In this document: positions 1 to 36,812 of the stretch, piece by piece
Layout of the letters: each line of letters starts with the position of its first letter
How positions within the stretch are numbered: the stretch's first letter is position 1
IMG/VR virus record: IMGVR_UViG_2880389630_000006
DNA from: a virus
Lineage: Duplodnaviria; Heunggongvirae; Uroviricota; Caudoviricetes
Length of the DNA stretch: 41,015 nucleotides
Strand: one strand, 5' to 3'
Program-made: the position numbers and the translations under genes
The notes under the pieces: model-generated
What the model was told of the DNA's origin: nothing
Databases searched by the model: none
What the model saw: the letters and a program-made list of their open reading frames with translations, nothing else

Positions 1-516
1 ATGAAATTTAAAAAATGTCTTCTGCCTGTGGCAATGTTAGCGTCATTCACTCTGGCAGGATGCCAGTCAAATGCTGATGATCATGCCGCCGATGTTTATC
101 AAACCGATCAACTGAATACCAAACAAGAAACTAAAACCGTTAATATTATTTCCATTCTTCCCGCAAAAGTTGCCGTAGACAACGCCCAAAATAAACGGAA
201 CGCACAAGCCTTCGGCGCGCTTATTGGCGCTGTCGCTGGCGGTGTTATCGGCCACAACGTCGGGTCTGGCAGCAATTCCGGAACGACGGCAGGTGCAGTT
301 GGCGGCGGAGCTGTAGGCGCGGCAGCGGGTTCTATGGTGAATGATAAAACCTTAGTGGAAGGTGTTTCTTTAACATATAAGGAAGGCACCAAAGTGTATA
401 CCTCCACCCAAGTGGGTAAAGAGTGCCAGTTTACGACAGGTTTAGCCGTTGTTATTACCACGACGTATAACGAAACGCGTATTCAGCCAAATACCAAATG
501 TCCTGAAAAGAGCTAA
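1..516 (+). CDS. Lipoprotein with Gly/Ala-rich glycine-zipper-like segment; probable host-flank gene
   Basis: ATG at window position 1; N-terminal signal peptide with lipobox (LAGC); Gly/Ala-rich stretch GALIGAVAGGVIGHNVG...GAVGGGAVGAAAG typical of glycine-zipper membrane lipoproteins. Family assignment is by eye. Confidence 0.65.
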   Translation: MKFKKCLLPVAMLASFTLAGCQSNADDHAADVYQTDQLNTKQETKTVNIISILPAKVAVDNAQNKRNAQAFGALIGAVAGGVIGHNVGSGSNSGTTAGAVGGGAVGAAAGSMVNDKTLVEGVSLTYKEGTKVYTSTQVGKECQFTTGLAVVITTTYNETRIQPNTKCPEKS

Positions 517-531
517 TAATCAGGAGGAGTC

Positions 532-1071
532 ATGAAGAAAGTTTTTCTTTGCGCCATCTTAGCCTCCTTAAGCTATCCGGCTATCGCCTCATCATTGCAG
601 GATCAACTCTCGGCTGTCGCAGAAGCGGAACAGCAAGGTAAAAATGAAGAGCAAAGGCAGCATGACGAATGGGTCGCGGAGCGCAACAGGGAAATCCAGC
701 AAGAGAAGCAACGTCGCGCAAACGCCCAGGCCGCGGCTAATAAAAGAGCGGCAACGGCAGCAGCGAATAAGAAAGCTCGTCAGGATAAACTGGACGCCGA
801 AGCCACTGCGGACAAAAAACGCGATCAAAGTTATGAAGATGAGCTACGTAGCTTAGAGATTCAGAAACAAAAACTGGCGCTGGCGAAAGAAGAAGCCCGC
901 GTTAAGCGCGAAAACGAATTTATCGATCAGGAACTGAAGCACAAAGCTGCGCAAACCGATGTGGTGCAATCTGAAGCTGACGCAAACAGAAATATGACTG
1001 AAGGCGGTCGCGATCTGATGAAAAGCGTGGGTAAAGCAGAAGAGAATAAATCAGATAGCTGGTTTAACTAA
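532..1071 (+). CDS. Secreted Lys/Glu/Ala/Gln-rich coiled-coil protein; probable host-flank gene
   Basis: Strong SD (caggagga) 6 nt before ATG; cleavable signal peptide (AIASS); low-complexity charged repeats (AANKRAATAAANKKARQDKLDAEA). Function unknown. Confidence 0.6.
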   Translation: MKKVFLCAILASLSYPAIASSLQDQLSAVAEAEQQGKNEEQRQHDEWVAERNREIQQEKQRRANAQAAANKRAATAAANKKARQDKLDAEATADKKRDQSYEDELRSLEIQKQKLALAKEEARVKRENEFIDQELKHKAAQTDVVQSEADANRNMTEGGRDLMKSVGKAEENKSDSWFN

Positions 1072-1110
1072 ACGATGTTAGTAACTTCAAACCTATAATT
1101 CTTTAGGATA

Positions 1111-1142
1111 AAAAACCCTCTGTAGTAACAGAGGGTTTTGTT
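1111..1142. terminator. Rho-independent terminator, probably bidirectional
   Basis: Perfect 7-bp stem ccctctg/cagaggg (1116-1122 / 1129-1135), 6-nt loop, A-run upstream and T-run (ttttgtt) downstream. Confidence 0.8.
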
Positions 1143-1265
1143 CATTCATAGTGCAGGGTCAAATCATTCCCACTCAATTATTTACGGCATGCATAACCAA
1201 TTGACTGGTAACAACTTTCTGTAACCTGATTTTCACCGTACCGTTTTATATACCGTCACCGGAAA

Positions 1266-1763
1266 TCAGTGCCACGATTTTTGCTTCTTCAGTGAATCGT
1301 ATTGCTGCTCGCAGAATTCCCCTGCGATACGATACTTTTCAGCCTCAGCTGCTGTTGCGTTGTAAACTCGGTTGCTTTCTTCAAGCATGTCGGCGAGCAC
1401 ACCGATGACCTTGCTGGCTGGCGTGCCAGGGGGGAAAGATCCGGTATAGTGTTCGGCGAGCCGCCTGGTTTTGTCAAGCTCGGCGCGCATGCTGTCAGCA
1501 GCGGAATTAGCATACTCAGCATCAGCACGCGCCGCATCGATACGGGATTGTGCTTCACGTTCAATTTGTGTTTTCTCCTGCTCACGCTGTGACCTTAACT
1601 TATCATCAGCCTGTTTCTGATCTTCCTTCGCCTGAGCATACCCGGCATCGTACTGGCGGCTGCCATGCACATTCCAGGCAACAACTCCTGATATGACCAG
1701 AACAGCAAGCATCGCCATGACAACCAACTGTTTCCGGTATGCTTTTGCGAATGCCCAGATCAT
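1266..1763 (-). CDS. Rz-like i-spanin (lysis)
   Basis: N-terminal TM helix then long charged coiled-coil region; start overlaps endolysin stop (ATGA); last gene of the lysis cassette; contains an embedded +1-frame lipoprotein ORF. Confidence 0.65.
1289..1537 (-). CDS. Rz1-like o-spanin lipoprotein embedded in Rz
   Basis: ATG at 1537 gives [17 protein letters not shown] (lipobox LTAC) followed by a Pro-rich short periplasmic segment, wholly inside the Rz gene in another frame. Classic Rz/Rz1 architecture. Confidence 0.5.
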   Translation of the reverse strand: MRRVLMLSMLIPLLTACAPSLTKPGGSPNTIPDLSPLARQPARSSVCSPTCLKKATEFTTQQQLRLKSIVSQGNSASSNTIH

Positions 1764-2389
1764 ACCGCCAGCACCTTACTGGCAGTGATGTACCGCACGC
1801 GCCGGTCGTCGATGCCATTCCTGCCACCATTGATAATCAGAGTTACACGTGCAATATCGCCGGTATACTTCATGCAACCTTTGCTGGAGAAGAACCACGC
1901 CGCGCTACGAGCCGCGTATTCGTCCTGCGCCAACAGTTCAGGATTCTCCAGCAGGTCCACTTTCAGGCCGTTTCCGCAATCACGATAGTTATTCAAACCG
2001 GTAATCTGGATAAGTCCGCGGCCACGGTAATTCCAGCCATCACCAGAGGCATTGTTCCCCATGCGTTTGCTGTACACCAGATTGGCAATCGCACGCTGGC
2101 GCTCAGGTGGCAATGGTGGCTCGCCTGCACGACGACCCAATGCGTTAGCCTGTCCCTGAGTAAGACGACCGGCACGAACGAAGTTAGCCAGTCCGGTGAC
2201 GCTGTAATTGAAATTCTCCTGCAACCTGGTGAAGCCACCAGACTCATGCCCGACCTGAGCAATAAACATTGCCTGATCTTCGGGTTTTCTGATACCAAAC
2301 TCTTTCATCGCAGAAGTTATATGCGAGAACCAGCGTGCGGCCAGAGCCTCGCTAATACCAGCAGCTCGCTGGAATTGTTTAATCTCCAT
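1760..2389 (-). CDS. Endolysin, glycoside hydrolase family 19 (chitinase-like) type
   Basis: Internal ATG at 2389 ([11 protein letters not shown]...) preceded by GAGG; motifs [12 protein letters not shown] and [13 protein letters not shown] typical of GH19 phage endolysins. The ORF-track N-terminal extension is rejected. Confidence 0.85.
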
Positions 2390-2687
2390 GTTTAGACCTC
2401 GATGTTTTGAAAATCTGAACAACGTTACCGCGTGTTTTAATAACCGCGGCAAGCATGACAGCGTTGATAATGACCTCAGATAAATCCACAGCCATTGGCG
2501 TACGTAACCAGATTGCATAGGCGACACGAACAGGAATACTGGCCGCAGCAACAATAAGGAAATAAGCAAGCCACCCTCCCCATCTTCGATGTTGAGAGCC
2601 GTTACGCCGGAATGTGACAACGCGAATTGCTATGCCAGTACAAATAATTGCATTGGTGATAAGCAAAACAAGCTCATTAGTTACCAT
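2379..2687 (-). CDS. Holin/antiholin-like small membrane protein
   Basis: 102 aa, 3 predicted TM helices, good SD (gggag), immediately upstream of and overlapping the endolysin start. Confidence 0.5.
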
Positions 2688-3078
2688 CGCCTTTTCTCCC
2701 AGGAATTAACTGGCGTGGATTATCAGAACGGTGATAGAGCCATATACCAATTCGCACTGCGACAATTGCTGACACGAATGCGCCAGCAGAGAAAACAATC
2801 CCTTTCTCGAAAGAGTCCTGCGTGATGGTAGGTATCATGCTGGCTATTCCGATAAGAATTGATGTTGTTGGTTTGTAAAAGAGAAGACCACAAAGAAAGC
2901 TGAGTATCGACAAGAGTACACGACGACGAACAGGATACTCTACAGCAGAGGTAACAAATATTACCGCACCAGCCAGAGCACCGAGAGCCACCTCTGGCGG
3001 AACGCCGTAGACGACAGAGGCCAGCGCACCCAAGCTTAACCCTTGATTCAGTGAATCCGCCGTAACCGTGCCATTCAT
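2677..3078 (-). CDS. Holin-like membrane protein
   Basis: About 133 aa from ATG at 3078 (the track start at 3087 is GTG); several hydrophobic helices; first gene of the lysis cassette. Confidence 0.5.
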   Translation of the reverse strand: MNGTVTADSLNQGLSLGALASVVYGVPPEVALGALAGAVIFVTSAVEYPVRRRVLLSILSFLCGLLFYKPTTSILIGIASMIPTITQDSFEKGIVFSAGAFVSAIVAVRIGIWLYHRSDNPRQLIPGRKGDGN

Positions 3079-3175
3079 GGTAACCACCGTTTATTGTGCA
3101 TAAAAACCCCCTTAGAAGATGAGGTCCATCATACACAATAAACCATTTACGGATAATAATTACCTAAATTTGGTC

Positions 3176-5827
3176 TTATTTTGATTCCAATAGTTCGAGT
3201 CGCTCTTCAATACGATCGCATCGACGGCGCTGATATGCAGCCTCAAGCCAAGCGCACTGGTCAGGCCGTATACCCCATGAACTACCCGCTTTTTTAACCA
3301 GCCTCTGTTCTCCGGTGTCATATTCGACGGTGACCAACTCACCAGACGTATCGGTAATCTCTTTAGTCGCGATTACCGGCTCAAAAATATCATCCCACTC
3401 GTCATAGCAAAGAAGGCCAAATCTGGTTCCATCAATTCCGTGCGCCAAGAATACATCCCTTACCTGCTGAGCCATGACGCCAAAATGCCATCTGGCACCA
3501 TCGCCCTTCATGGATATAGCGTCGAGCCATCGATACGCCACAACAGAAATATCGCCCCAGGCATCAAGAATGCTGTCTCTATCAGAAGAAAGCATTTCAC
3601 TTAAATCTGATATTGCCTCGGGATTGGTTTTCAGCGTGGCATCTGATGAAACGGTTGGGGCATTTGCAAAGTAGGCGTCTTTAATACGAAACGATGCCTG
3701 ACCAAAATTATAGGTATTGTCAGCAAACGGGCGAAGACCTGTATCATAAAACCGCCAGCGTATGGTTCCTCCCAATGCTGTCGGGTCGCTGTTGCATGCA
3801 ATATCCACCGTGGTGGCAGACCTAAACACAGAAGAACTACCGCCCAATACCAAGCTATTTGCGCTAGCTGTAGCCTGCTGGTCAAGGACCAATATTTTCT
3901 GAGAGTTTGTAGTTGCACCGGCATATGATGATGCAGTGATGCGGTTTAATTGGTTTGTATCAGGATCTGCGTTTTGCTGAATGGTTAAGTTAGATGCCCA
4001 CTGTGCCGGTCGCTGGCGCACAAATACAAAGTCACCAGAAGGATTAGTTGCAACCAAATAACTAATGCCACTATCAGATGAATAATAGTTGACTATAAAA
4101 GTCTGATTATTCGCATTCAGTATTTCAACATATGTGCTGGAAGGGATTGCCACGCCAGATATATCAGCAATGCTGACAGTCCCTGTGTAAAAATTAAATG
4201 CCTTCTGACTCATCTCCTGCATATAGCGAAGAATTTCAGTCATGTTAGTGAACAACGTACCATCTACAGGGTTAACAATCCCCTTCGCACTACGGGGATA
4301 TACCCCAATGCTCGCGTGATCGATATCAAATCCGCGGTAAAGCCTGGATGCAGGTGTAAAATCGATAGCATCTTTATCAGTGGAGAAATCTTCGAAAATA
4401 ACCAAACCTGAATTGTAAGGTTCAGAGCCAGTTCTTTCCTGATGAATGTAAAGTGAATAAATGGATTTTCCATCCTGAGAAACACAAACGCCTTCATTTT
4501 CTATGCGAGTGACGTTCAATCCTGCGGCTTTCATTAAATCCATCATGGCCTGAGGATGAAGCATTGATTCAGTTCGCTTTGTACCGTCAGGGTTAAAAAC
4601 TTTGCTGCCCTGATATTCGTTATATCCTGCGCTTCCTGCCCCATCAGCTATGAAGCCGCCATAGCCGCAGACAAAGTAGTTATCACCTACCGCAATACCC
4701 TGACGCTTGTTGAAATAAGGCGCATAAGGTGAGGTGCTTTTAGTTACATACCCAACATCATGTAACGGCAGCGTTATAGTTGACAGGCGATTGAAACCAC
4801 TGTCGAACACTGCAAGTACAGTTCTTGTGATTTTCTGTCCTACTTCTGGCGCATTCTGCTCAACGAGCCATATACCTCTTCTGTAGCTGAACTGGTTGAA
4901 TAATCCAACATCATGGTTTTGTACAAGAGGCAGATTGCTTCCGTATAATGCCCCCTCCATATTAAATTCACGCAGTATTCCGTTTGTGTGACCAACAAAC
5001 ATTTTTTTGGGGCCATAGTCTGACGTAACCACGATTCCTTCAGCAGCGAAGCCTGGGCCGCCAGCCTGAACATAGAAATAACCTTGATAAATACCAGATA
5101 TGTTAAATACTGCGACGACATTATTCGTCTGTTTAGGCTCAAATGGATAAGTGATGTATATCAAATCTTCGCTAACGCAGAATCCTTGAGGATACATATA
5201 AGTTGCTGACGGGTTAGCAGCCATAATCGCATCATATTCAGGAAAAAGAAGCGGCATCGTAGCTACAATCTTTCTTTGGTGATTTGTAAAAATATCGTTT
5301 TTAGCGCTGTTAGGTGTAGGCGTTACACCTCCAGTAAAAAGATCATCAACATAACCTTTATTGACAGCATCGTTTCTGTCAGTGGCATTTGCTAGATTTG
5401 ATATCTTATTATTTTTTGCATCATAATAGTTAGCCAGAATGCTTGGTTTTATAAGTGCTAACCTCATCCATGAAAAACACTTTTGAATAAGCATTGTCAG
5501 TTTATCGAACGCGTCTTCATGTACCTCAGCGAAGAACTTACCCTGATTACGCAAATCAGTATCCTGCGTAACCGGGAGCTCTCGTGATATAGAAATATGA
5601 TAACCGTTAGCCAACGCCTTCGACAGAATTACATTACCGCCATTATATCCTCCAGCATTGGTTACTGTGTAGTCAGTATCCAGAACCAATTCTGTTACGT
5701 TCCCGTTCAGGTCAGACACCTGAACAACCAGGTCGGATTTTTTGAAAATACGGAAGGTATACGGAAATGATGTCGTAGCTCCGTTACCGGTGTATTCGTT
5801 GTGGTCAACTTCGGTTGAGACCGTCAT
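3176..5827 (-). CDS. Tailspike / tail fibre with C-terminal intramolecular chaperone (peptidase S74-like) domain
   Basis: 883 aa. C-terminus (GDISVVAYRWLDAISMKGDGARWHFGVMAQQVRDVFLAHGIDGTRFGLLCYDEWDD) matches the auto-cleaving chaperone domain of endosialidase/tail-fibre proteins. Central domain of unknown specificity. Confidence 0.8.
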   Translation of the reverse strand: MTVSTEVDHNEYTGNGATTSFPYTFRIFKKSDLVVQVSDLNGNVTELVLDTDYTVTNAGGYNGGNVILSKALANGYHISISRELPVTQDTDLRNQGKFFAEVHEDAFDKLTMLIQKCFSWMRLALIKPSILANYYDAKNNKISNLANATDRNDAVNKGYVDDLFTGGVTPTPNSAKNDIFTNHQRKIVATMPLLFPEYDAIMAANPSATYMYPQGFCVSEDLIYITYPFEPKQTNNVVAVFNISGIYQGYFYVQAGGPGFAAEGIVVTSDYGPKKMFVGHTNGILREFNMEGALYGSNLPLVQNHDVGLFNQFSYRRGIWLVEQNAPEVGQKITRTVLAVFDSGFNRLSTITLPLHDVGYVTKSTSPYAPYFNKRQGIAVGDNYFVCGYGGFIADGAGSAGYNEYQGSKVFNPDGTKRTESMLHPQAMMDLMKAAGLNVTRIENEGVCVSQDGKSIYSLYIHQERTGSEPYNSGLVIFEDFSTDKDAIDFTPASRLYRGFDIDHASIGVYPRSAKGIVNPVDGTLFTNMTEILRYMQEMSQKAFNFYTGTVSIADISGVAIPSSTYVEILNANNQTFIVNYYSSDSGISYLVATNPSGDFVFVRQRPAQWASNLTIQQNADPDTNQLNRITASSYAGATTNSQKILVLDQQATASANSLVLGGSSSVFRSATTVDIACNSDPTALGGTIRWRFYDTGLRPFADNTYNFGQASFRIKDAYFANAPTVSSDATLKTNPEAISDLSEMLSSDRDSILDAWGDISVVAYRWLDAISMKGDGARWHFGVMAQQVRDVFLAHGIDGTRFGLLCYDEWDDIFEPVIATKEITDTSGELVTVEYDTGEQRLVKKAGSSWGIRPDQCAWLEAAYQRRRCDRIEERLELLESK

Positions 5828-5930
5828 GTTAAATCTCCAGATAGTCGCAGCACCCGTTGCGCCGCATATCTGGTTATTCTATTACCTGGAAAACCACATA
5901 TGGATAGAAAGGCTGTAAATACGAATAGAT

Positions 5931-5947
5931 ATTACCTTTCAGGTAAT
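5931..5947. promoter_or_regulatory. 17-bp palindromic operator ATTACC-TTTCA-GGTAAT
   Basis: Perfect inverted repeat; same motif family recurs at the immunity region and other promoters (see findings). Confidence 0.55.
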
Positions 5948-5983
5948 TTGCAAAACGTGCTGGATAGCAAACAAATTATTTGC

Positions 5984-6003
5984 TACTGTATAAATATACA
6001 GTT
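5984..6003. promoter_or_regulatory. LexA (SOS) box
   Basis: TACTGTATAAATATACAGTT = CTGT-N8-ACAG with AT-rich centre, near-perfect match to the E. coli LexA consensus TACTGTATATATATACAGTA; lies 20 bp upstream of the ATG at 6023 and overlaps a TATAAA -10-like hexamer. Confidence 0.7.
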
Positions 6004-6022
6004 ATTGCATGGAGAAGATAAG

Positions 6023-6280
6023 ATGCAGCAGTATCACTATCCACTGGAAGACGGATTTACCGAAAGGATTCACACGCCGGGAGGCGTCAGGTCACTGGTG
6101 GAGGGATCGCACTTGATGAAATTACTCCGGGATCTCGATAAGGATGGATTTAATGTCGATGGCCCACTTGCCGAACTGACTGCACTGATTAACTACGTCA
6201 CCAGCTCACAGATGTCTATGCAGGATCTGCAAACACATCTCGACTATTGTGCCGAACAATTACGAAAACAAACCAGATAA
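6023..6280 (+). CDS. Small protein paralogous to the C-terminal domain of the downstream antirepressor; candidate LexA-controlled antirepressor
   Basis: 85 aa from ATG at 6023 with SD ggagaag; LLRDLDKDGFNVDGPLAELTALINYVTSSQMSMQDLQTHLDY aligns with LLNQLQDDGHDVSGAAAELTTMFCYIVGVSKCLRDIQTHAEY in the 6593-7279 protein. The longer track ORF from 5900 is rejected because it would run through the operator, promoter and LexA box. Confidence 0.6.
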   Translation: MQQYHYPLEDGFTERIHTPGGVRSLVEGSHLMKLLRDLDKDGFNVDGPLAELTALINYVTSSQMSMQDLQTHLDYCAEQLRKQTR

Positions 6281-6310
6281 GGTTTGCAATTACCAAGTGG
6301 AGTGCTTAAA

Positions 6311-6327
6311 TTTACCTTTGCGGTAAA
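6311..6327. promoter_or_regulatory. Operator-like palindrome TTTACC-TTTGC-GGTAAA
   Basis: Same 6-5-6 inverted-repeat family, in the leader between the small paralog and the Bro-N antirepressor gene. Confidence 0.45.
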
Positions 6328-6592
6328 TTTACATCGCACTCCTCTTGTGCCATAGTAATCAGGCACTGGCAAAATCCAGTGCCGGGATTGGCGTCCCGGG
6401 TTACTACAGAGGCACATATGCCGCATAAGCGGTTTTTTTATGTGTAAAGCGCACCTATTCTATGGTGGGCTGTGTGGGGGCACCGAAAGGTGCGCCGGGT
6501 CCTTTGTAGCCGGTTACGCCAACCCTGCACAGTTCACCACCAACCGATTGGCGTCGGTAGTGGTGATTAACCTAACTACAAAGGTGATCACT

Positions 6593-7279
6593 ATGACTGC
6601 TAACGTAACCCCATCTGTTTTTCATTTTGAATCAGAAGCAACCATTCGAGCCATTGTTATTGATGGAAATCCTTGGTTTGTTGCCAAAGACGTTATTAAA
6701 GCTCTTCAACTGACAAACCCCACTATGTCAATAAAATCTCTTGATGATGATGAAAGGGCTAAATTTAACTTAGGCCGTCAAGGCGAAACCAATATTATCA
6801 ACGAGTCAGGCCTCTACACACTGATCCTCCGCTGCCGCGACGCAGTGACACCAGGCACTATCCCCTACCGCTTTCGTAAATGGGTTACAGGTGAGGTTCT
6901 TCCTCAGATCCGCCGCACCGGAAGTTACATTAAAAACTCGCTCCCGCAGGAAGAACGCATAAAGATGGTTGCCGACCAGGTAGCCAACGCCACAGCATCA
7001 GCAGTGATGCAGGCAATGAAGATAGAGAACAAAACCTACAGCGCCCCACTGAAGCCCGGCTACCGCAGTCTGATTCATTCTCCGTCTGGTGTTCTCGGCC
7101 TGACGGAGAACTCACTGCTGATGAATCTGCTGAACCAGTTACAGGACGACGGGCACGACGTATCGGGTGCGGCGGCAGAGCTGACCACCATGTTTTGCTA
7201 CATCGTCGGTGTGAGCAAATGCCTGCGTGATATCCAGACGCACGCGGAGTACATCAACGACAAGGCAGGGTTCTTCTGA
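6593..7279 (+). CDS. Phage antirepressor, Bro-N domain family
   Basis: ATG at 6593 with SD aaggtga; N-terminus (IRAIVIDGNPWFVAKDVIKALQL...ESGLYTLILRCRDAVTPGTIPYRFRKWVTGEVLPQIRRTGSY) is Bro-N/antirepressor-like. Confidence 0.8.
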   Translation: MTANVTPSVFHFESEATIRAIVIDGNPWFVAKDVIKALQLTNPTMSIKSLDDDERAKFNLGRQGETNIINESGLYTLILRCRDAVTPGTIPYRFRKWVTGEVLPQIRRTGSYIKNSLPQEERIKMVADQVANATASAVMQAMKIENKTYSAPLKPGYRSLIHSPSGVLGLTENSLLMNLLNQLQDDGHDVSGAAAELTTMFCYIVGVSKCLRDIQTHAEYINDKAGFF

Positions 7280-7343
7280 CGAGCGGCGGCACAGGGATGT
7301 GCCTTTAAATAATTCTGTACAGATTGCAGGTGAATAGCTTACT

Positions 7344-7360
7344 ATTACCTCACGGGTGAT
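7344..7360. promoter_or_regulatory. Operator-like site ATTACC-TCACG-GGTGAT (one mismatch)
   Basis: Same motif family; right half GGTGAT equals the lambda operator half-site. Confidence 0.35.
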
Positions 7361-7447
7361 CCATAGCGATTAGGCACCGATACAGGAGGAGCCCACATGA
7401 GAAAATTTGACGAGTACGAAGGCGTTTAACATTCGGATAGTTTAATG

Positions 7448-7471
7448 ACGGGGCCATTAGGCCCCGTTTTC
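7448..7471 (+). terminator. Rho-independent terminator / possible attenuator
   Basis: Stem acggggcc/ggccccgt with loop atta, then TTTT; sits between a 10-codon micro-ORF (7397-7429, strong AGGAGG SD) and the GTG start of the 7489 gene. Confidence 0.7.
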
Positions 7472-7488
7472 ATGTCTGGAGACAGTTT

Positions 7489-8028
7489 GTGTTAAGTGAA
7501 GAAATGCAATTTGCCATGGCTGTGGCTCAAATCGTAAGTGCAGTCGCGGTTTCGCTTGGCTTGTTCATAGCTATCGCTACTATTATTTATAATGTAAATA
7601 CAGCGAGAAAAGTACACACTTCAGTATTCCTTGGTGAAAGCAGGTTTGATGTAGATTATAAGAAAGGCCTATCTACTATGCGCCGCATTCACGAATCGAA
7701 CAAATCATTCCGCTCTTATATGTATCCAAGCAATGGGCAGGCTGATCTTACGGATGAAGAAAAGACAGAGAAGAGAGAAATAATTTACTGTCTAGGTTTC
7801 TACGAACGCATGGCTGTGAGCGTGAAGCGGAAAACTTATGATGAGACCATGATTAAGGAAGTATTTTACAGCTCCGTTGTAAATAACTATCAGATTGCGC
7901 TACCTCTTATACAAGCCATTAGAGAAAAAGAAAACATAAACACATATTTTAAAGAATATGAATGGTTGGCCACACGATGGAAGGATTGCCCATTGAAGGA
8001 TAAATCCCCGTGGTACAAGTTTTGGTAA
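7489..8028 (+). CDS. Membrane-anchored protein of unknown function (AT-rich moron; candidate superinfection-exclusion or abortive-infection protein)
   Basis: 179 aa; GTG start with SD ggag 8 nt upstream (alternative ATG at 7504); single N-terminal TM helix (AMAVAQIVSAVAVSLGLFIAIATIIY) then a soluble domain; markedly AT-rich relative to its neighbours; opposite strand to the structural operon. Confidence 0.6.
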   Translation: MLSEEMQFAMAVAQIVSAVAVSLGLFIAIATIIYNVNTARKVHTSVFLGESRFDVDYKKGLSTMRRIHESNKSFRSYMYPSNGQADLTDEEKTEKREIIYCLGFYERMAVSVKRKTYDETMIKEVFYSSVVNNYQIALPLIQAIREKENINTYFKEYEWLATRWKDCPLKDKSPWYKFW

Positions 8029-8323: not shown

Positions 8324-8737
8324 TTATAAAGATGACTGATATTTTACAACTCTGTTCATGGCATCTTTTTTCACCGAGCTGATATCAGTTCTTATTTTGG
8401 CTTCGTCATTACTGCTTATCATGCTATTAATTTTTTGCACTGACATGCCGTTTCTTTCAGCCATTGCACATACAGCAGCATCGTATGAAGAACTCGCTGC
8501 GATGGATATCACCTTGTTACACTCAAACACAGCACCTTCAGCAATATCAGATGCCGATGAGGCTGGCTTGGTATAAGTCTTGACGTAGTGATCAATACAA
8601 CTATCCTTCGCCGTCTTGGCAAGAGAAAAATCCACTTTAACTTTGTCGCAATATGCCTTATCAACACCGTCATAAACATCATAGGATGTCGAGCAAGCGG
8701 ATATCAAAAATACCGATAACAGCAATAATTCCTTCAT
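8324..8737 (-). CDS. Lipoprotein, last gene of the structural operon (candidate receptor-masking or exclusion lipoprotein, or tail accessory protein)
   Basis: Lipobox LISAC after a signal peptide; SD aaggaac; 6 further Cys residues; immediately downstream of the 824-aa virion protein gene. Confidence 0.65.
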   Translation of the reverse strand: MKELLLLSVFLISACSTSYDVYDGVDKAYCDKVKVDFSLAKTAKDSCIDHYVKTYTKPASSASDIAEGAVFECNKVISIAASSSYDAAVCAMAERNGMSVQKINSMISSNDEAKIRTDISSVKKDAMNRVVKYQSSL

Positions 8738-25152: not shown

Positions 25153-25229
25153 GTGGCATTAGCTCAGTCGGACAGAGCAACCGCCTTCTAAGCGGTTGGT
25201 CGCAGGTTCGAATCCTGCATGCCACGCCA
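25153..25229 (+). tRNA. tRNA-Arg (anticodon UCU)
   Basis: Hand-folded cloverleaf: 7-bp acceptor stem GTGGCAT/ATGCCAC, D-arm gctc-agtcggaca-gagc, anticodon stem accgc/gcggt with loop CT-TCT-AA, T-arm gcagg-TTCGAAT-cctgc, discriminator G plus encoded CCA. Resembles but is not identical to enterobacterial argU. Confidence 0.85.
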
Positions 25230-25427
25230 GAATCACGCCTAAGGACCGTGATGCCAGAAGTTCCAGGGGCTTGGCGGTGATGGTTTCCCTTGAAGGACTA
25301 TCACCGCCCTTTTTACAGCAGGACGCCATTGCGATGACTTCATGCTGTAAACCCGTACAGCCACGGAAGGCATAACTCATTGCTTCCAGTTCGCCCGGTT
25401 CGCCGGGCATTTTTTTAAGGTGAGATT

Positions 25428-32337: not shown

Positions 32338-32354
32338 TTTACCCCTGAGGTAAT
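32338..32354. promoter_or_regulatory. Operator TTTACC-CCTGA-GGTAAT abutting the start codon at 32335
   Basis: Perfect 6-5-6 inverted repeat. Confidence 0.5.
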
Positions 32355-32399
32355 TAAAAACCACATAAGACACGAAATCAATAGATTTTAGAATATTTT

Positions 32400-32416
32400 A
32401 TTACCTAACAGGTAAT
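32400..32416. promoter_or_regulatory. Operator ATTACC-TAACA-GGTAAT
   Basis: Perfect inverted repeat 46 bp from the previous site, between the P-like and DUF1064-like genes. Confidence 0.5.
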
Positions 32417-33253: not shown

Positions 33254-34050
33254 GCTTCAGGGCTGTTCCAGTGCGGAACGTTGTTATCAGGTAATGTTGA
33301 TTGCTTCTGTCTGCTAATCTGCAGCCGCCTTGCCAGCTTCTGCTCCCACTGTGCCTGATGGTATGCCTTACCCTCAGCCATCCAGTAAATTCTGAACTCT
33401 GCAAGTTCCTGTGCCGTTGGCAGACTGTCCAGGTAGATCCCCTGCAATGAGCTTTTCCGAAGAAAGTCATCTGATGGCTGCCATTGTTCATGCATGACAA
33501 ATTTGCCTAATTGCCCTGGCCCACCAGGAGGAACAAAGTTATTCATCACGGCGTTGTTTGCTCCGGGGTCATGAGGCACAGAATCCCCGCTTTTTGTCCT
33601 GCTCTCCCTCTCTTGGTTAAATGACTGGTTATATGACTGGTTCTGGATCCCGTTTTTGGGATCATTCAACATCCCGTTTTTGGGATCATTCAACATCCCG
33701 TTTTTGGGTATATTCCCGTTTTCGGGTATATTCCCGTTTTCGGGTTCATTGCCCCCCTCCCGGTTGCCTTTAATGTTCCCGTTTTTGGTTATATTAAGAG
33801 AGAAAACCCGCACTCTTTTTGTCGCTCCCTTTCTCTCTCCGGTATCTGAAATAATCCCCATTTTCATGAGCGATATAAGCCCGGCCTGCACGGTTTTTTT
33901 ATTCAGGCAAGTGTCTTTAACGAGGCGTTCTATGCTGGGGTAGCAGAGGTTATATTCATCGGCTCTGTCAGCCATCGAGAGCAGTATGAGCTTTAATGAT
34001 GAGCTACCTGGATCTGTCTCCCAAGCCCAATCTGTTGCATGTCTGCTCAT
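33235..34050 (-). CDS. Replication initiator O-like protein
   Basis: HTH-containing N-terminus, iteron array inside the coding region (Asn/Gly/Pro peptide repeats), immediately upstream of the P-like gene. Confidence 0.7.
   Translation of the reverse strand: MSRHATDWAWETDPGSSSLKLILLSMADRADEYNLCYPSIERLVKDTCLNKKTVQAGLISLMKMGIISDTGERKGATKRVRVFSLNITKNGNIKGNREGGNEPENGNIPENGNIPKNGMLNDPKNGMLNDPKNGIQNQSYNQSFNQERESRTKSGDSVPHDPGANNAVMNNFVPPGGPGQLGKFVMHEQWQPSDDFLRKSSLQGIYLDSLPTAQELAEFRIYWMAEGKAYHQAQWEQKLARRLQISRQKQSTLPDNNVPHWNSPEAWEDFL
33647..33796. repeat. Replication-origin iterons (about 6 copies, core TCCCGTTTT(T/C)GGGAT)
   Basis: Two identical 24-bp units atcccgtttttgggatcattcaac (33647-33670, 33671-33694), then four shorter variants through 33796, followed by an A/T-rich tract; palindromic core like lambda ori iterons. 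Confidence 0.7.
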
Positions 34051-34344: not shown

Positions 34345-34361
34345 TATTACCTTTGAGGTAC
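34345..34361. promoter_or_regulatory. Operator-like site ATTACC-TTTGA-GGTACG (degenerate right half)
   Basis: Same motif family, between the Cro-like gene and the next gene. Confidence 0.35.
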
Positions 34362-34682: not shown

Positions 34683-34747
34683 TTCACCCATAAGGTAACA
34701 AAAATCAAGGATAGTTACCTATGGGGTGCATTTACCTGTTGGGTAAT
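34683..34747. promoter_or_regulatory. Immunity-region operator cluster (three 17-bp sites) with divergent promoters
   Basis: Sites TTCACC-CATAA-GGTAAC (34683-34699), GTTACC-TATGG-GGTGCA (34714-34730), TTTACC-TGTTG-GGTAAT (34731-34747) in the 154-bp gap between the Cro-like and repressor genes. Confidence 0.55.
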
Positions 34748-34801: not shown

Positions 34802-35386
34802 ATGAAAAGTATCCAGGACGTCCGCAGGCAAAATCTCAACGACTTGATCGACCGTGAATTCAATGGTGTTCAGACGCGGATGGCAGAAAAACTTGGAACT
34901 CAGGCAAATCTGGTAAACCGCTGGGCTCTTGGCAAGAAGGTTATCGGCGACCAGGTTGCGCGAAAAATTGAAGCTGCCGCCAATAAACCCCGTAACTGGC
35001 TTGATATCGATCGCTCGCTTTCTCAGGAAGGTTTTCAGCCTGTCGGCCCAAGCGACATTGGTCAGCTGGCAGCTCACAACCTGGAACGCTGGATGAGTGA
35101 AAGCCGCGACCTTTCAACTCAGGGAAAACTTCACCGCGCATCCGGCGTCGCCCAGGTGACAATCAGCCGCCTGTTAAACAATGAGGTCAGCGTTTCCATT
35201 TCCACCCTGGAGAATGTTGCATCCGCATTCGGGCGTCACGGATATGAACTACTGATTCACCCGCACGACCCTGCGACTATCAACTATGACCGCTCACGCT
35301 ACGCATTGTTACCCGAAACCGAGAAAGCAAAGATCGAAAGTTACATTGAATTTGTCATCAACCAGAACGAAAAAAACAAACAATAA
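34802..35386 (+). CDS. Prophage repressor, tandem HTH-XRE domains, no S24 peptidase domain
   Basis: Two HTH-like segments (GVQTRMAEKLGTQANLVNRW and ASGVAQVTISRLLNNEVSVSISTLENVASAF); no Ala-Gly/Ser-Lys autocleavage motifs; divergent to the Cro-like gene. Confidence 0.65.
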   Translation: MKSIQDVRRQNLNDLIDREFNGVQTRMAEKLGTQANLVNRWALGKKVIGDQVARKIEAAANKPRNWLDIDRSLSQEGFQPVGPSDIGQLAAHNLERWMSESRDLSTQGKLHRASGVAQVTISRLLNNEVSVSISTLENVASAFGRHGYELLIHPHDPATINYDRSRYALLPETEKAKIESYIEFVINQNEKNKQ

Positions 35387-35442: not shown

Positions 35443-35521
35443 ATTACCTAACGGGTAATTTTTTTAACTCATATCTATTGACATCAAACCATATACGCAT
35501 AATTATTACCTCAACGGTAAC
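35443..35521 (+). promoter_or_regulatory. Early promoter with two operators (OL-like)
   Basis: ATTACC-TAACG-GGTAAT (35443-35459); TTGACA at 35478-35483; A/T-rich -10 region overlapped by ATTACC-TCAAC-GGTAAC (35505-35521). Confidence 0.5.
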
Positions 35522-35694: not shown

Positions 35695-35994
35695 ATGAAC
35701 GTTAATCAGCAGAAAAATCTTCAAAAAATCATGCTGGCATTCGACAAGGACTACCGTCTGTCAGAACAGCTATATGACCGACAAGTTGAACTGATTGAGA
35801 GTATCCGGCTTCATCAACTGGCATCAACTTTCGACGTTGTAACAGTTAAAGGCGTTCGCCAGGAAGTACTGGAGGCCGCTAAAGACAGCCCTGAGTTCGA
35901 AGAACTAATGGATGCCTACCGGCGCGAGGCAATGGCAATTATCGCCCGCTGGGATCTGGCTGATCAGCTTGATGGGCAGAGGGACGCGGCATGA
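35695..35994 (+). CDS. Hypothetical early protein
   Basis: 99 aa from ATG at 35695 (MNVNQQKNLQ...), acidic; overlaps the exonuclease start. Confidence 0.45.
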   Translation: MNVNQQKNLQKIMLAFDKDYRLSEQLYDRQVELIESIRLHQLASTFDVVTVKGVRQEVLEAAKDSPEFEELMDAYRREAMAIIARWDLADQLDGQRDAA

Positions 35995-36812
35995 AACCGG
36001 GAATTTATTTCGACATCAGCAACGAAGACTACCACGCCGGTGACGGCGTGAGTAAGTCGCAACTGGACATGGTTGCCAAGAATCCGGCGCTTCTTAAATG
36101 GGTTCAGGCAGCACCAGAAGACGAAGAGAAAAAGTCTGCACTGGATATGGGAACCGCATTGCACTGTCTGCTTCTGGAGCCTGGAGAGTTCGACAAACGC
36201 TTCATTGTTTCACCGAAATTCGATCGTCGGACGAAACAAGGTAAAGCTGACGAAGAGGAATTTCTTCGTGATGTGGCGGATATGGGGATTACGGTACTTG
36301 ATGCCGAGCAGTGGCGGAAACTGGAGCTGATGCGTGATAGCGCAATGGCTCACCCGGCGGCACGCTGGATGCTGGAAGCACCTGGTTACTGCGAAGCATC
36401 AATGTACTGGAACGATGAAGAGACGGGGGAGTTGTGCCGAATTCGTCCAGACAAATGGCTGAACGAGCACAACGTGATCGTCGACGTGAAAAAGGTTGCA
36501 GATATGGACCGTTTTGCACGCCACATCGAGGAATTCCGCTACCACGTGCAGGACGCAATGTACCGCGAAGGCGCAATGAGGGTTACTGGTCAGCCGCATG
36601 GTTTTTTCTTTCTTGCCGTGAGCGAAAGCATTGATTGTGGTCGGTATCCGGTACGCGTGTTCGAGCTGGATGCGCAGGATGTCGATGCCGGGCACGCTCT
36701 GTTCCGCCGGGATCTGAATACCTATCACGAATGCCGCATCAATGATGAATGGGGCGGTGTGGAAATCATTAAACGCCCTGAGTGGGCACGCAAACAGGAT
36801 ATGTACATATGA
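35991..36812 (+). CDS. RecE-like PD-(D/E)XK exonuclease (exonuclease VIII-type)
   Basis: 273 aa; D...IVDVKK core motif; size and context match prophage exonuclease VIII-like genes; upstream of and overlapping an annealase gene. Confidence 0.65.
   Translation: MKPGIYFDISNEDYHAGDGVSKSQLDMVAKNPALLKWVQAAPEDEEKKSALDMGTALHCLLLEPGEFDKRFIVSPKFDRRTKQGKADEEEFLRDVADMGITVLDAEQWRKLELMRDSAMAHPAARWMLEAPGYCEASMYWNDEETGELCRIRPDKWLNEHNVIVDVKKVADMDRFARHIEEFRYHVQDAMYREGAMRVTGQPHGFFFLAVSESIDCGRYPVRVFELDAQDVDAGHALFRRDLNTYHECRINDEWGGVEIIKRPEWARKQDMYI

What the first reader, a model, noticed from the sequence alone, without database searches (positions are those of the whole stretch)
5931..6280. LexA-box-controlled small antirepressor paralog paired with a non-cleavable tandem-HTH repressor
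A near-consensus LexA box (TACTGTATAAATATACAGTT, 5984-6003) sits 20 bp upstream of an 85-aa ORF that is a stand-alone copy of the C-terminal domain of the adjacent Bro-N antirepressor. The prophage repressor (34802-35386) has two HTH domains and no S24 autopeptidase domain. Together this predicts SOS induction through a LexA-derepressed antirepressor rather than RecA-mediated repressor cleavage, as described for Gifsy-type and phage 186 Tum systems. The same promoter also carries a repressor-type operator (5931-5947), so the gene would be under dual LexA and prophage control. A domain-sized paralog acting as the antirepressor (or as a modulator of the full-length Ant) is not a textbook arrangement.
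Basis: partly seen in the sequence, partly recalled or inferred. Interest (0 to 1): 0.75.

Follow-up and report, generated by a model that had tools for sequence, protein, structure and literature searches.

The report
LexA-gated small antirepressor, already characterised

Summary
A LexA box matching 18 of 20 consensus positions lies at 5984-6003, 19 nt upstream of an 85-aa ORF (6023-6280). That ORF is 40% identical to the C-terminal domain of the adjacent Bro-N protein. The repressor (34802-35386) has no S24 peptidase domain.

The window is an epsilon15/phiV10-like (Uetakevirus) prophage. The small ORF is 88% identical to SPC32H Ant, and the repressor is 42% identical to SPC32H Rep. Both were crystallised together (PDB 5D50). 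The SNP that distinguishes the constitutive-Ant variant SPC32N falls in the homologous LexA box.

The palindrome at 5931-5947 belongs to a dispersed operator family, TTACC-N5-GGTAA, with 13 sites in the window against 0.66 expected. Whether it regulates ant is untested.

It carries a second operator, a promoter, an IsrK-like RNA and a C4 antisense RNA. The C4 loops pair with the Shine-Dalgarno region of the Bro-N antirepressor, and loops and targets covary across related phages. The locus therefore combines an SPC32H-type SOS input with a P1/P7 immI-type RNA gate on a second antirepressor that carries the same repressor-binding domain.

Low novelty, modest interest.

The parts
5931..5947 (.). 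Rep operator (ATTACCTTTCAGGTAAT) in the divergent tailspike/ant intergenic region
   Evidence: One of 13 TTACC-N5-GGTAA sites in the window, against 0.66 expected. Conserved in 9 of 9 related phages. The homologous site in the epsilon15 GenBank record is annotated protein_bind 'repressor'.
5948..5989 (+). Inferred ant promoter region. Candidate -35 is TGGATA (5961-5966) with -10 TACTGT (5984-5989), which is the left arm of the LexA box. An alternative -35 is TTGCAA (5948-5953), abutting the operator.
   Evidence: The CTGGATAG block and TAC-TGT are conserved across 9 phages. No experimental transcription start site is available; this is inference from the sequence.
5984..6003 (.). LexA (SOS) box TACTGTATAAATATACAGTT
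   Evidence: Unique in the window within 3 mismatches of the consensus, with 0 of 100 shuffles producing one. Aligned with the SPC32H box. The SPC32N SNP changes ACAG to AAAG in that box.
6023..6280 (+). Small antirepressor Ant (85 aa), ortholog of SPC32H Ant
   Evidence: 88% identical to SPC32H_020 'ant'. E 4e-47 to PDB 5D50_E 'Anti-repressor protein'. The AlphaFold model's best PDB fold match is 5D50_H.
6311..6327 (.). Second Rep operator (TTTACCTTTGCGGTAAA), directly abutting the -35 of the IsrK-type promoter
   Evidence: Exact TTACC-N5-GGTAA match. The -35 hexamer starts at 6328.
6328..6356 (+). Promoter-like site TTTACA-17-CATAGT with TG extension, the likely promoter for the IsrK/C4/Bro-N ant operon
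   Evidence: Found by the promoter scan. The -10 ends 7 nt before position 1 of the Rfam isrK match at 6363.
6363..6439 (+). IsrK-like RNA. It contains C4 target b1 (6388-6394), target a1 (6404-6412) and an intrinsic terminator (6420-6433 plus a T-run).
   Evidence: Rfam RF01394, 74.7 bits against a gathering score of 50. Terminator found. Complementarity to the C4 loops shown.
6458..6544 (+). C4-type antisense RNA, with loop a' at 6501-6509 (CCUUUGUAG) and loop b' at 6516-6522 (ACGCCAA)
   Evidence: Rfam RF01695, 79.5 bits against a gathering score of 45, full-length match. The minimum-free-energy fold leaves both loops unpaired.
6548..6585 (+). C4 targets b2 (6548-6554, UUGGCGU) and a2 (6576-6584, CUACAAAGG). 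Target a2 overlaps the Shine-Dalgarno AAGGUG of the Bro-N ant gene.
   Evidence: Perfect complements of 7 and 9 nt. Loops and targets covary across phages.
6593..7279 (+). Second antirepressor (228 aa): an N-terminal Bro-N domain fused to a C-terminal Ant-like (Rep-binding type) domain
   Evidence: Pfam Bro-N covers residues 18-104. Residues 147-223 match 5D50_E at E 1.9e-13. Matches PHROG 130 'anti-repressor Ant'. 82% identical to ZX5 ORF4, with only one substitution from residue 74 to the C terminus. Overexpressing ZX5 ORF4 lowers lysogeny.
34802..35386 (+). Prophage repressor Rep (194 aa), non-S24, ortholog of SPC32H Rep
   Evidence: 42% identical over the full length to SPC32H rep. E 4e-42 to 5D50_A and E 4e-20 to 5D4Z (C-terminal domain). 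100% identical to the phiV10 and ZX5 repressors. No S24 domain found.
34684..34746 (.). Operator pair between rep and the divergent cro-like gene
   Evidence: Sites at 34684-34698 (1 mismatch) and 34732-34746.
35444..35520 (.). Operator pair, 62 bp centre to centre, bracketing a TTGACA-17-CATAAT early promoter downstream of rep

Best explanation
The locus is the SOS-induction module of an epsilon15/phiV10-type (Uetakevirus) prophage, of the kind characterised in Salmonella phage SPC32H.

SOS input. In the lysogen, host LexA sits on the box at 5984-6003, which overlaps the ant promoter, and keeps the 85-aa Ant silent. DNA damage leads to RecA-stimulated LexA self-cleavage, and Ant is then made. 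Ant binds the prophage repressor Rep (34802-35386), which has no autopeptidase domain and is not cleaved. Binding strips Rep from its dispersed TTACC-N5-GGTAA operators, so the lytic genes switch on.

Second input. Immediately downstream lies a second, independently wired antirepressor cassette of the P1/P7 immI and Gifsy-1 isrK type. A promoter at 6328-6356, abutted by a Rep operator, transcribes an IsrK-like RNA that carries the decoy or activator sites a1 and b1 and ends at a leaky terminator. Downstream of it come a C4 antisense RNA and then a Bro-N protein whose C-terminal domain is a paralog of Ant. The C4 loops a' and b' pair with a2 and b2 across the Bro-N gene's Shine-Dalgarno sequence. 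The second antirepressor is therefore translationally blocked wherever matching C4 RNA is present, that is, in a lysogen of the same C4 specificity.

What is shown here: the sequence anatomy, the orthology, the RNA family membership, the loop-target complementarity and its covariation.

What is taken from the literature on orthologs: LexA binding, the Ant-Rep interaction, non-cleavage of Rep, and the effect of overexpressing the ZX5 Bro-N protein.

What is inferred: that Ant still binds this 42%-identical Rep; that the Bro-N protein acts through its Ant-like domain on the same Rep; and the direction in which the two operators regulate.
For: - Whole-locus similarity to phiV10, TL-2011b, ZX5, SPC32H and epsilon15, with the same synteny: tailspike, then divergent ant, then the injection-protein gene.
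- Ant is 88% identical to SPC32H ant and matches PDB 5D50_E at E 4e-47.
- Rep matches 5D50_A at E 4e-42 and 5D4Z at E 4e-20.
- The LexA box is conserved at the same position in 6 of 9 related phages. The three Klebsiella phages (BUCT711, Kp4865-1, ST512) have ATGT in place of CTGT in the left arm.
- One of the two differences between SPC32H and SPC32N in the 901-nt stretch compared is ACAG to AAAG in this box. This matches the published account, recalled from the Kim & Ryu 2013 abstract, that a LexA-site SNP gives constitutive Ant.
- Secondary literature states that LexA cleavage leads to Ant synthesis, which inhibits the repressor (PMC7380047), and that tetrameric Ant binds two Rep dimers and breaks the Rep tetramer (PMC9638917).
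- Operator enrichment: 13 sites against 0.66 expected in the window, and 18 against 0.65 in SPC32H.
- The C4 and isrK Rfam matches are above their gathering scores.
- The 9-nt and 7-nt complements lie at the Shine-Dalgarno region.
- C4 loops, a1/b1 and a2/b2 covary three ways. The b type is ACGCCAA, AGACCAA or GTCTCAA. The a type is CCTTTGTAG or CCTTTTAG. Each has matching targets.
- Overexpressing ZX5 ORF4 cuts the prophage titre from 1e9 to 1e6 (PMC9782041). ZX5 Rep is identical to the window's Rep.
Against: - No experiment exists on this E. coli version of the small Ant.
- Rep is only 42% identical to the crystallised Rep while Ant is 88% identical, so conservation of the interface is assumed, not shown.
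- The primary papers (PMC3807360, PMC4983836) could not be read here. Details of LexA binding and Rep non-cleavage rest on my memory of the abstracts and on secondary citations.
- The exact ant promoter and its transcription start are unknown.
- The ZX5 overexpression data are crude titre changes.
- The c4-a1b1 Rfam model scores just below its gathering threshold (42.6 against 46.7).
Confidence: 0.85

Rival explanations
1. True dual (AND-gate) control. Rep bound at 5931-5947 represses the ant promoter together with LexA, so ant needs both LexA cleavage and loss of Rep.
For: The operator is a genuine member of the Rep operator family and is conserved in all 9 phages. It directly abuts a -35-like TTGCAA at 5948-5953. 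The second operator has the same geometry relative to the -35 of the IsrK promoter.
Against: The better-conserved promoter candidate is TGGATA-17-TACTGT, and it puts the operator centre near -57, outside the core promoter. The intergenic region is shared with the divergent tailspike gene, so the operator may serve that gene instead. SPC32N keeps an intact operator, because it differs only at the LexA-box SNP and a tailspike SNP. By the published abstract (from memory) it still makes Ant constitutively, so Rep alone does not hold ant off. An antirepressor that needs prior loss of its own target would also be a poor trigger.
Confidence: 0.25
2. SOS-to-RNA coupling. The small ant gene has no terminator of its own, so LexA-derepressed ant transcripts run into the IsrK element and end at its terminator. 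They would carry the a1/b1 sites as a 3' UTR. This would titrate C4 RNA, or act like IsrK in trans, and so unlock translation of the Bro-N antirepressor as a feed-forward step.
For: No terminator-like site lies on the + strand between 6280 and 6420. Phages lacking the insert have a terminator directly after ant (epsilon15 stem_loop; SPC32H sequence). In Gifsy-1, IsrK supplied in trans activates translation of the downstream antirepressor 100-fold or more (PMC4825925). The a1/b1 sites are complementary to the C4 loops and covary with them.
Against: The tight juxtaposition is not universal. TL-2011b has about 0.9 kb, with an oppositely oriented pseudogene-like feature, between ant and isrK. ST512 and Kp4865-1 have about 0.7 to 1.3 kb of other sequence in between. 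The IsrK element has its own promoter. There are no transcript data.
Confidence: 0.18
3. The Bro-N protein is the real SOS antirepressor, and the small ORF only modulates it.
For: The Bro-N protein carries the same domain. The ZX5 homolog reduces lysogeny when overexpressed.
Against: SPC32H, epsilon15, BUCT554 and BUCT711 have no Bro-N gene at this locus but keep the small ant, and SPC32H, epsilon15 and BUCT554 also keep the exact LexA box. The small protein alone forms the crystallised complex with Rep (5D50). The Bro-N gene sits behind a terminator and a C4-occluded Shine-Dalgarno, not behind the LexA box.
Confidence: 0.05
4. Classical induction. Rep is inactivated by RecA-stimulated self-cleavage, and the LexA box and Ant are accessory.
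For: None found here.
Against: No S24 peptidase domain at E<=0.1. Rep has the full-length architecture of SPC32H Rep, which is reported as not cleaved (abstract of Kim & Ryu 2013, from memory; review text).
Confidence: 0.03

Closest known systems
SPC32H Rep/Ant antirepression system (Kim & Ryu 2013, J Virol 87:11775; Kim et al. 2016, PNAS 113:E2480; PDB 5D50, 5D4Z)
   Same: Orthologous Ant (88% identity) and Rep (42%, full length). The LexA box is at the homologous position in the ant promoter. The Rep operator core TTACC-N5-GGTAA is the same. The gene order and the phage genus (Uetakevirus) are the same.
   Different: Rep is strongly diverged. The terminator after ant is replaced by an operator plus an IsrK/C4/Bro-N-ant cassette and further cargo genes (DUF4760 and others) that SPC32H lacks. 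The E. coli version has not been tested experimentally.
P1/P7 immI region (c4 antisense RNA - icd - ant)
   Same: A full-length C4 RNA match. The two loops a' and b' are complementary both to upstream a1/b1 sites and to downstream a2/b2 sites at a ribosome-binding site. An antirepressor gene lies downstream. An operator for the primary repressor sits at the promoter. Loop-target covariation defines specificity types, and phages with identical primary repressors differ in C4 type, as P1 and P7 do (review text).
   Different: No clear icd-like coupled leader gene was found, and a2 lies on the antirepressor's own Shine-Dalgarno. The antirepressor has a Bro-N domain plus an SPC32H-Ant-like domain. 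The host element is a podovirus prophage that also has a LexA-gated Ant.
Gifsy-1 isrK-orf45(STnc1160)-anrP locus (Hershko-Shalev et al. 2016, PMC4825925)
   Same: An IsrK RNA match above threshold with a leaky intrinsic terminator. A stable C4-like RNA region follows, and then an antirepressor-like gene in one operon.
   Different: An orf45-type coupled ORF is not evident. Candidates are a 32-aa GTG ORF at 6472-6570 and an in-frame ATG at 6440. No AntQ link is seen here. It is unknown whether IsrK activates translation in this phage.
Coliphage 186 Tum and Gifsy/Fels-2 LexA-controlled antirepressors (Shearwin et al. 1998; Lemire et al. 2011)
   Same: The same logic: a LexA-repressed small antirepressor inactivates a non-cleavable repressor (review text).
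   Different: No detectable sequence relationship. tblastn of the small Ant over 50,697 phage records returns only 35 epsilon15-like or Klebsiella records, and there is no DinI/Tum-type Pfam match. It is an analog, not a family member.
P22 immI (mnt-arc-ant with sar RNA)
   Same: An antirepressor cassette placed next to the tailspike gene of a temperate podovirus, with antisense RNA control of ant translation.
   Different: Different regulators (Mnt/Arc against LexA/Rep/C4) and an unrelated RNA family. No sar match occurs in the window, but one occurs in TL-2011b at L004 6946-7013.

Membership tests
SPC32H-type Ant/Rep antirepression system | Small (~86 aa) Ant protein homologous to SPC32H Ant / PDB 5D50 chain E | tested here: met
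   88% identity by tblastn. phmmer E 4e-47 to 5d50_E.
SPC32H-type Ant/Rep antirepression system | Rep with an N-terminal DNA-binding domain and a C-terminal oligomerisation/Ant-binding domain, and no S24 peptidase | tested here: met
   Full-length alignment to 5d50_A at E 4e-42, and the C-terminal domain to 5d4z_A at E 4e-20. No S24 match in Pfam at E<=0.1.
SPC32H-type Ant/Rep antirepression system | LexA box overlapping the ant promoter at the homologous position | tested here: met
   Alignments. The SPC32N SNP maps to the box. The box is unique in the window.
SPC32H-type Ant/Rep antirepression system | LexA binding, SOS-dependent Ant synthesis, physical Ant-Rep interaction, and Rep not cleaved | not testable with these tools
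   These need gel shift, western blot and pull-down experiments. They are known only for the Salmonella ortholog.
P1/P7 immI-type C4 antisense control of an antirepressor | C4 RNA with the family's structure | tested here: met
   RF01695, 79.5 bits against a gathering score of 45, model positions 1-87 of 87.
P1/P7 immI-type C4 antisense control of an antirepressor | Loops a' and b' complementary to a2/b2 at the ribosome-binding site of the downstream gene, with compensatory variation between phages | tested here: met
   9-nt and 7-nt perfect complements, with a2 lying on the Shine-Dalgarno. Three b types and two a types covary with their targets in 7 loci.
P1/P7 immI-type C4 antisense control of an antirepressor | Upstream a1/b1 copies in the same transcript | tested here: met
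   b1 lies at 6388-6394 and a1 at 6404-6412 (one G-U wobble), both inside the isrK match. The RF03163 model itself scores 42.6, just under its gathering score of 46.7.
P1/P7 immI-type C4 antisense control of an antirepressor | icd-like leader ORF translationally coupled to ant | tested here: inconclusive
   Only a 32-aa GTG ORF (6472-6570) and an in-frame ATG at 6440 are present. Translation of 6440-6592 matches no NCBIfam family. ZX5 annotates a 37-aa 'ash family' ORF there.
Gifsy-1 IsrK riboregulator | IsrK RNA with a rho-independent terminator upstream of an antirepressor operon | tested here: met
   RF01394, 74.7 bits against a gathering score of 50. Terminator at 6420-6433 plus a T-run.
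186 Tum / Gifsy GfoA-GfhA antirepressors | Sequence homology to Tum (DinI-like C-terminus) or to the Gifsy antirepressors | tested here: not met
   No Pfam match other than noise. tblastn hits are restricted to 35 epsilon15-like or Klebsiella phage records.
Lambda CI / LexA-type autocleavable repressors | C-terminal S24 peptidase domain | tested here: not met
   No Peptidase_S24 match at E<=0.1. The C-terminal domain matches the 5D4Z tetramerisation domain instead.

The most novel reading that the evidence does not exclude
One repressor-binding domain may be deployed twice in the same prophage under two different sensors. The first copy is a stand-alone Ant gated by LexA, which reports DNA damage. 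The second is a Bro-N fusion gated by a C4/IsrK RNA specificity code, which reports superinfection or heteroimmunity as in P1/P7. The two may be coupled at the RNA level. The ant mRNA lacks its own terminator, so it should carry the IsrK a1/b1 sites as a 3' UTR. SOS induction would then titrate C4 RNA and unlock the second antirepressor as a feed-forward lock-in. Phages with 100% identical Rep but different C4 loop types (this window against phiV10/ZX5) would then be heteroimmune through the RNA code alone.
Probability: 0.2. Interest if true: 0.55.

Novelty: already known. Interest (0 to 1): 0.25.

Why it matters
It adds no new principle.

It has some practical value. The small Ant is labelled 'hypothetical protein' in the RefSeq E. 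coli records listed. It has no Pfam or NCBIfam model. PHROG 450 lists it as 'unknown function'. Yet a crystal structure of its complex with Rep exists. The full arrangement occurs in 291 of 5,426 complete E. coli genomes, so this is a widespread annotation gap.

Two points have modest scientific value and I did not find them described in the papers I could read.

1. The SPC32H-Ant fold is a portable C-terminal module. It is attached to Bro-N, AntA, pRha and ORF6N heads. This points to it as the repressor-binding part of many 'Ant' proteins.
2. phiV10-type phages combine the LexA/Ant switch with a P1-style C4 RNA immunity code that varies between phages sharing an identical repressor.

Tried and rejected
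- Primary papers: reading Kim & Ryu 2013 (DOI and PMC3807360), Kim et al. 2016 (PMC4983836) and the epsilon15 genome paper (PMC2698709) failed because none is held. I relied on GenBank annotations, PDB entries, secondary citations and my memory of the abstracts.
- Family models for the small Ant: Pfam and NCBIfam gave nothing usable. The only hit was a noise-level DUF724 match.
- Word-indexed homolog search: it returned only close stand-alone 85-86-aa relatives. The domain fusions appeared only in the profile search of representatives.
- CTGT-N8-ACAG as a significance test: the bare pattern is not significant on its own, with 2 sites against 0.55 expected and 12 of 100 shuffles reaching that count. 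The 20-mer consensus test was the informative one. The second site, at 25345-25360, has a GC-rich spacer and I regard it as chance.
- Promoter scan: the generic scan did not call an ant promoter. The promoter assignment rests only on conservation.
- Local tandem duplication as the origin of the paralogy: rejected. The Bro-N protein's C-terminal domain is 93% identical to the C-terminus of an AntA-headed protein and 67% identical to a stand-alone 95-aa protein, but only about 40% identical to the neighbouring small Ant. The two copies belong to different subclades of a shuffled domain family.
- The 126-aa ORF from ATG 5900 (many database clusters call it that way, for example P0003): rejected. 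It would read through the operator, the promoter and the LexA box, and the crystallised and annotated Ant starts at the position homologous to 6023.
Full report
**1. Observation**

- TACTGTATAAATATACAGTT occupies 5984-6003. A GGAG Shine-Dalgarno lies at 6011-6014, and an ATG at 6023 opens an 85-codon frame ending at 6280.
- The 20-mer differs from the LexA consensus TACTG(TA)5CAGTA at two positions. It is the only site in 41 kb within three mismatches of that consensus, and none of 100 dinucleotide shuffles produced one.
- The bare CTGT-N8-ACAG pattern is not significant on its own.
- The 85-aa product aligns to residues 147-224 of the adjacent 228-aa protein (6593-7279) at 40% identity, E 2e-15. 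The N-terminus of that protein is a Pfam Bro-N domain.
- The ORF at 34802-35386 has an above-threshold HTH_3 match at residues 106-147. Its N-terminal HTH has weaker support: a sub-threshold YdaS/HigA-like match and PHROG regulator families over residues 1-76. There is no S24 peptidase domain.

**2. What the element is**

The window is an epsilon15/phiV10-like temperate podovirus prophage of the genus Uetakevirus.

- The 5800-7500 region matches phiV10, TL-2011b, ZX5 and related E. coli phages at 93-98% DNA identity. It matches Salmonella epsilon15-like phages at about 78% across the small ORF.
- By tblastn the small ORF is 88% identical to gene SPC32H_020, annotated 'ant: anti-repressor protein'.
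- It matches PDB 5D50 chain E, 'Anti-repressor protein', at E 4e-47.
- An AlphaFold model of the small ORF is an all-helical bundle with mean pLDDT 73. Its only significant PDB fold match is the same entry, 'Crystal structure of Rep-Ant complex from Salmonella-temperate phage'.
- The repressor aligns end to end with SPC32H Rep at 42% identity. It matches 5D50_A at E 4e-42 and the isolated C-terminal domain 5D4Z at E 4e-20.
- It is 100% identical to the phiV10 and ZX5 repressors.
- Ant (35 records) and Rep (37 records) are found in largely the same set of epsilon15-like and Klebsiella phage records.

**3. The LexA box is the characterised one**

- An alignment of the tailspike-ant intergenic region with SPC32H puts the two LexA boxes in register.
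- In the 901-nt stretch compared, the GenBank records of SPC32H and SPC32N differ at two positions. One is a tailspike SNP. The other changes ACAG to AAAG in the right arm of this box, read on the ant strand.
- As I recall the abstract of Kim & Ryu 2013, the two phages differ by only two nucleotides, and a single mutation in the LexA-binding site overlapping the ant promoter gives constitutive Ant. I could not open that paper.
- A review states that after LexA self-cleavage an antirepressor is made that inhibits the repressor by protein-protein interaction, citing that work.
- Another paper summarises the structural work: Rep binds DNA as a tetramer, and tetrameric Ant binds two Rep dimers and breaks the tetramer.

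**4. The operator**

- ATTACCTTTCAGGTAAT (5931-5947) is one of 13 TTACC-N5-GGTAA sites (<=1 mismatch) in the window, against 0.66 expected. SPC32H has 18 against 0.65 expected.
- Sites cluster around rep, at 34347, 34684, 34732, 35444 and 35506. They also bracket a consensus TTGACA-17-CATAAT promoter just downstream of rep.
- Several pairs are 62 bp apart: 32339/32401 and 35444/35506 in the window, and 33604/33666 and 35972/36034 in SPC32H. This spacing fits a tetramer contacting two palindromes.
- The epsilon15 GenBank record already labels the homologous site upstream of gp19 as protein_bind 'repressor'.
- In a nine-phage alignment the operator, a CTGGATAG block and the LexA box are the conserved islands.
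- The best conserved promoter candidate is TGGATA-17-TACTGT, in which the -10 is the left arm of the LexA box. That places the operator centre near -57.
- An alternative -35, TTGCAA, abuts the operator.
- The region also serves the divergent tailspike gene, and SPC32N keeps the operator intact. I therefore rate true dual control as possible but unproven (0.25).

**5.

The 312-bp spacer between the two antirepressor genes is not empty.

- Rfam finds an IsrK RNA at 6363-6439 (74.7 bits against a gathering score of 50) and a full-length C4 antisense RNA at 6458-6544 (79.5 bits against 45). A near-threshold c4-a1b1 match lies at 6350-6402.
- A second operator (6311-6327) directly abuts a TTTACA-17-CATAGT promoter with a TG extension. 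Its -10 ends 7 nt before IsrK position 1.
- IsrK ends in an intrinsic terminator at 6420-6433 followed by a T-run.
- C4 loop a' (CCUUUGUAG, 6501-6509) is perfectly complementary to 6576-6584, which overlaps the AAGGUG Shine-Dalgarno of the Bro-N gene (ATG at 6593).
- C4 loop b' (ACGCCAA, 6516-6522) is complementary to 6548-6554, and also to 6388-6394 inside IsrK.
- The IsrK/C4 pair also lies downstream of the small ant, in the same orientation, in phiV10, TL-2011b, ZX5, Tyrion, Kp4865-1 and ST512.
- Across those loci the loops and both target sets change together. The b type is ACGCCAA, AGACCAA or GTCTCAA, and b1/b2 read TTGGCGT, TTGGTCT or TTGAGAC to match. The a type is CCTTTGTAG or CCTTTTAG, and a1/a2 read CTACAAAGG or CTAAAAGG to match.
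- This is the architecture and specificity logic of the P1/P7 immI region, where c4 RNA blocks antirepressor synthesis and underlies P1/P7 heteroimmunity.
- It is also the architecture of the Gifsy-1 isrK-orf45-anrP locus.
- The window and phiV10/ZX5 have identical Rep proteins but different a-type loops. This mirrors P1 and P7.

**6. The Bro-N protein**

- It is 82% identical to ZX5 ORF4. Divergence is confined to the first ~73 residues of the Bro-N head; from residue 74 to the C terminus there is a single substitution.
- In ZX5, overexpressing ORF4 reduced the prophage titre from 1e9 to 1e6, and overexpressing the repressor abolished free phage.
- Its residues 147-223 match the crystallised Ant at E 1.9e-13.

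**7. The domain family**

- A profile search of 1.84 billion cluster representatives finds only 60 relatives at E<=1e-3.
- About half are stand-alone proteins of 80-95 aa.
- The longer ones carry the domain C-terminal to Bro-N, AntA, pRha or ORF6N heads.
- The Bro-N protein's C-terminal domain is 93% identical to that of an AntA-headed protein and 67% identical to a stand-alone 95-aa protein. It is about 40% identical to the neighbouring small Ant.
- The paralogy therefore reflects domain shuffling within a small family, not a local duplication.
- The most economical reading is that this domain is the Rep-binding module and that the N-terminal heads are accessory. This is inference.

**8. Mechanism I commit to**

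Confidence in the overall mechanism is 0.85.

1. LexA represses ant.
2. DNA damage removes LexA.
3. Ant binds the uncleavable Rep and releases it from its dispersed operators.
4. Independently, the Bro-N::Ant-domain protein is kept untranslated by C4 RNA pairing across its Shine-Dalgarno.
5. It is expected to be made when cognate C4 RNA is absent or outcompeted. That would happen on entry into a cell whose resident prophage has a different C4 type, or when IsrK-type RNA rises.

Steps 1 to 3 rest on orthology and the literature. Step 4 rests on sequence, Rfam membership and covariation. Step 5 is by analogy to P1/P7 and Gifsy-1.

**9. A speculative extension**

The small ant has no terminator of its own before the IsrK terminator. 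Phages without the cassette have a terminator right after ant. SOS-induced ant mRNA should therefore carry a1/b1 as a 3' UTR and could titrate C4 RNA.

The variable spacing in TL-2011b, ST512 and Kp4865-1 argues against this being a conserved design. I give it about 0.2.

**10. Verdict**

- Novelty is 'already known'. The system was described, including a crystal structure, in a sister phage, and phiV10 and ZX5 are themselves published.
- The residual interest has three parts. The first is the annotation gap: the gene is 'hypothetical protein' in the RefSeq records listed, the arrangement is in 291 of 5,426 complete E. coli genomes, and there is no Pfam or NCBIfam model while PHROG 450 lists it as 'unknown function'. 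The second is the portability of the Ant domain. The third is the undescribed pairing of a LexA-gated Ant with a C4-coded second Ant.

Noticed in passing
window 32339-32415 and 35444-35520; L002 (SPC32H) 33604-33680 and 35972-36048: Rep operators often come in pairs exactly 62 bp apart, centre to centre. This would suit one Rep tetramer bridging two palindromes, about six helical turns apart. The two operators flanking the small ant (5932 and 6312) are 380 bp apart.
   Followed up: partly
window 5900-6280 and 6440-7279: Mechanical ORF calls extend both antirepressor genes upstream. One gives 126 aa from ATG 5900, reading through the operator and LexA box. The other gives 279 aa from ATG 6440, reading through the C4 RNA. 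Public protein clusters contain many 126/127-aa versions of the small Ant (for example P0003, with 833 members), which are probably mis-called starts.
   Followed up: partly
window 5866-5905: A block conserved in all nine phages (ATTCTATTACC...AAACC..TATATG) lies about 40-80 bp upstream of the tailspike start. On the minus strand it reads as a TAGAAT -10-like hexamer next to an operator half-site (GGTAAT). It may be the tailspike promoter with a half operator.
   Followed up: no
window 6593-6810 compared with L005 (ZX5) 3297-3520: The Bro-N head of the second antirepressor is mosaic. The first ~73 residues are roughly 45-50% identical to ZX5 ORF4, whereas residues 74-228 carry a single substitution. 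This suggests recombination inside the gene that keeps the Ant-like tail.
   Followed up: no
window 7345-7359, 7489-8028, 8324-8737: Cargo lies between the Bro-N gene and the injection-protein gene. It comprises an operator-like site with one mismatch, a DUF4760 protein (179 aa, N-terminal hydrophobic segment) and a 137-aa protein on the opposite strand whose N-terminal LSACS motif looks like a lipoprotein signal (judged by eye). SPC32H has only a 46-aa membrane protein here. These are moron-like and their function is unknown.
   Followed up: no
window 25153-25229: A tRNA-Arg (anticodon TCT) lies inside the prophage, as in SPC32H. A second CTGT-N8-ACAG match at 25345-25360 has a GC-rich spacer and is probably chance.
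   Followed up: no
L004 (TL-2011b) 6946-7013: A P22-type sar antisense RNA match (44.8 bits against a gathering score of 43) occurs in TL-2011b a few kb downstream of its IsrK/C4 cassette. That phage may therefore carry two different antisense-RNA immunity modules.
   Followed up: no
window 6369-6567 compared with Stx phages (for example VT2-Sakai, phi24B, 933W-like records): The IsrK/C4 segment is shared at 70-85% identity with about 200 Stx-converting and other lambdoid phage records, and with APSE phages of Hamiltonella. It is usually unannotated there. In phi24B the literature describes a small RNA, '24B_1', as a negative regulator of the antirepressor gene d_ant. Its position relative to this match was not checked, so whether it corresponds to the C4/IsrK element is an open lead.
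   Followed up: no
window 1-3087: The left end holds lysogenic-conversion-like and lysis genes: a glycine-zipper/TraT-like protein (judged lipoprotein-like) at 1-516, a DUF5384 protein, an Rz-like DUF2514 protein, a GH19 endolysin and a holin. An integrase lies at the right end (39759-41015). The window is essentially one whole prophage.
   Followed up: no
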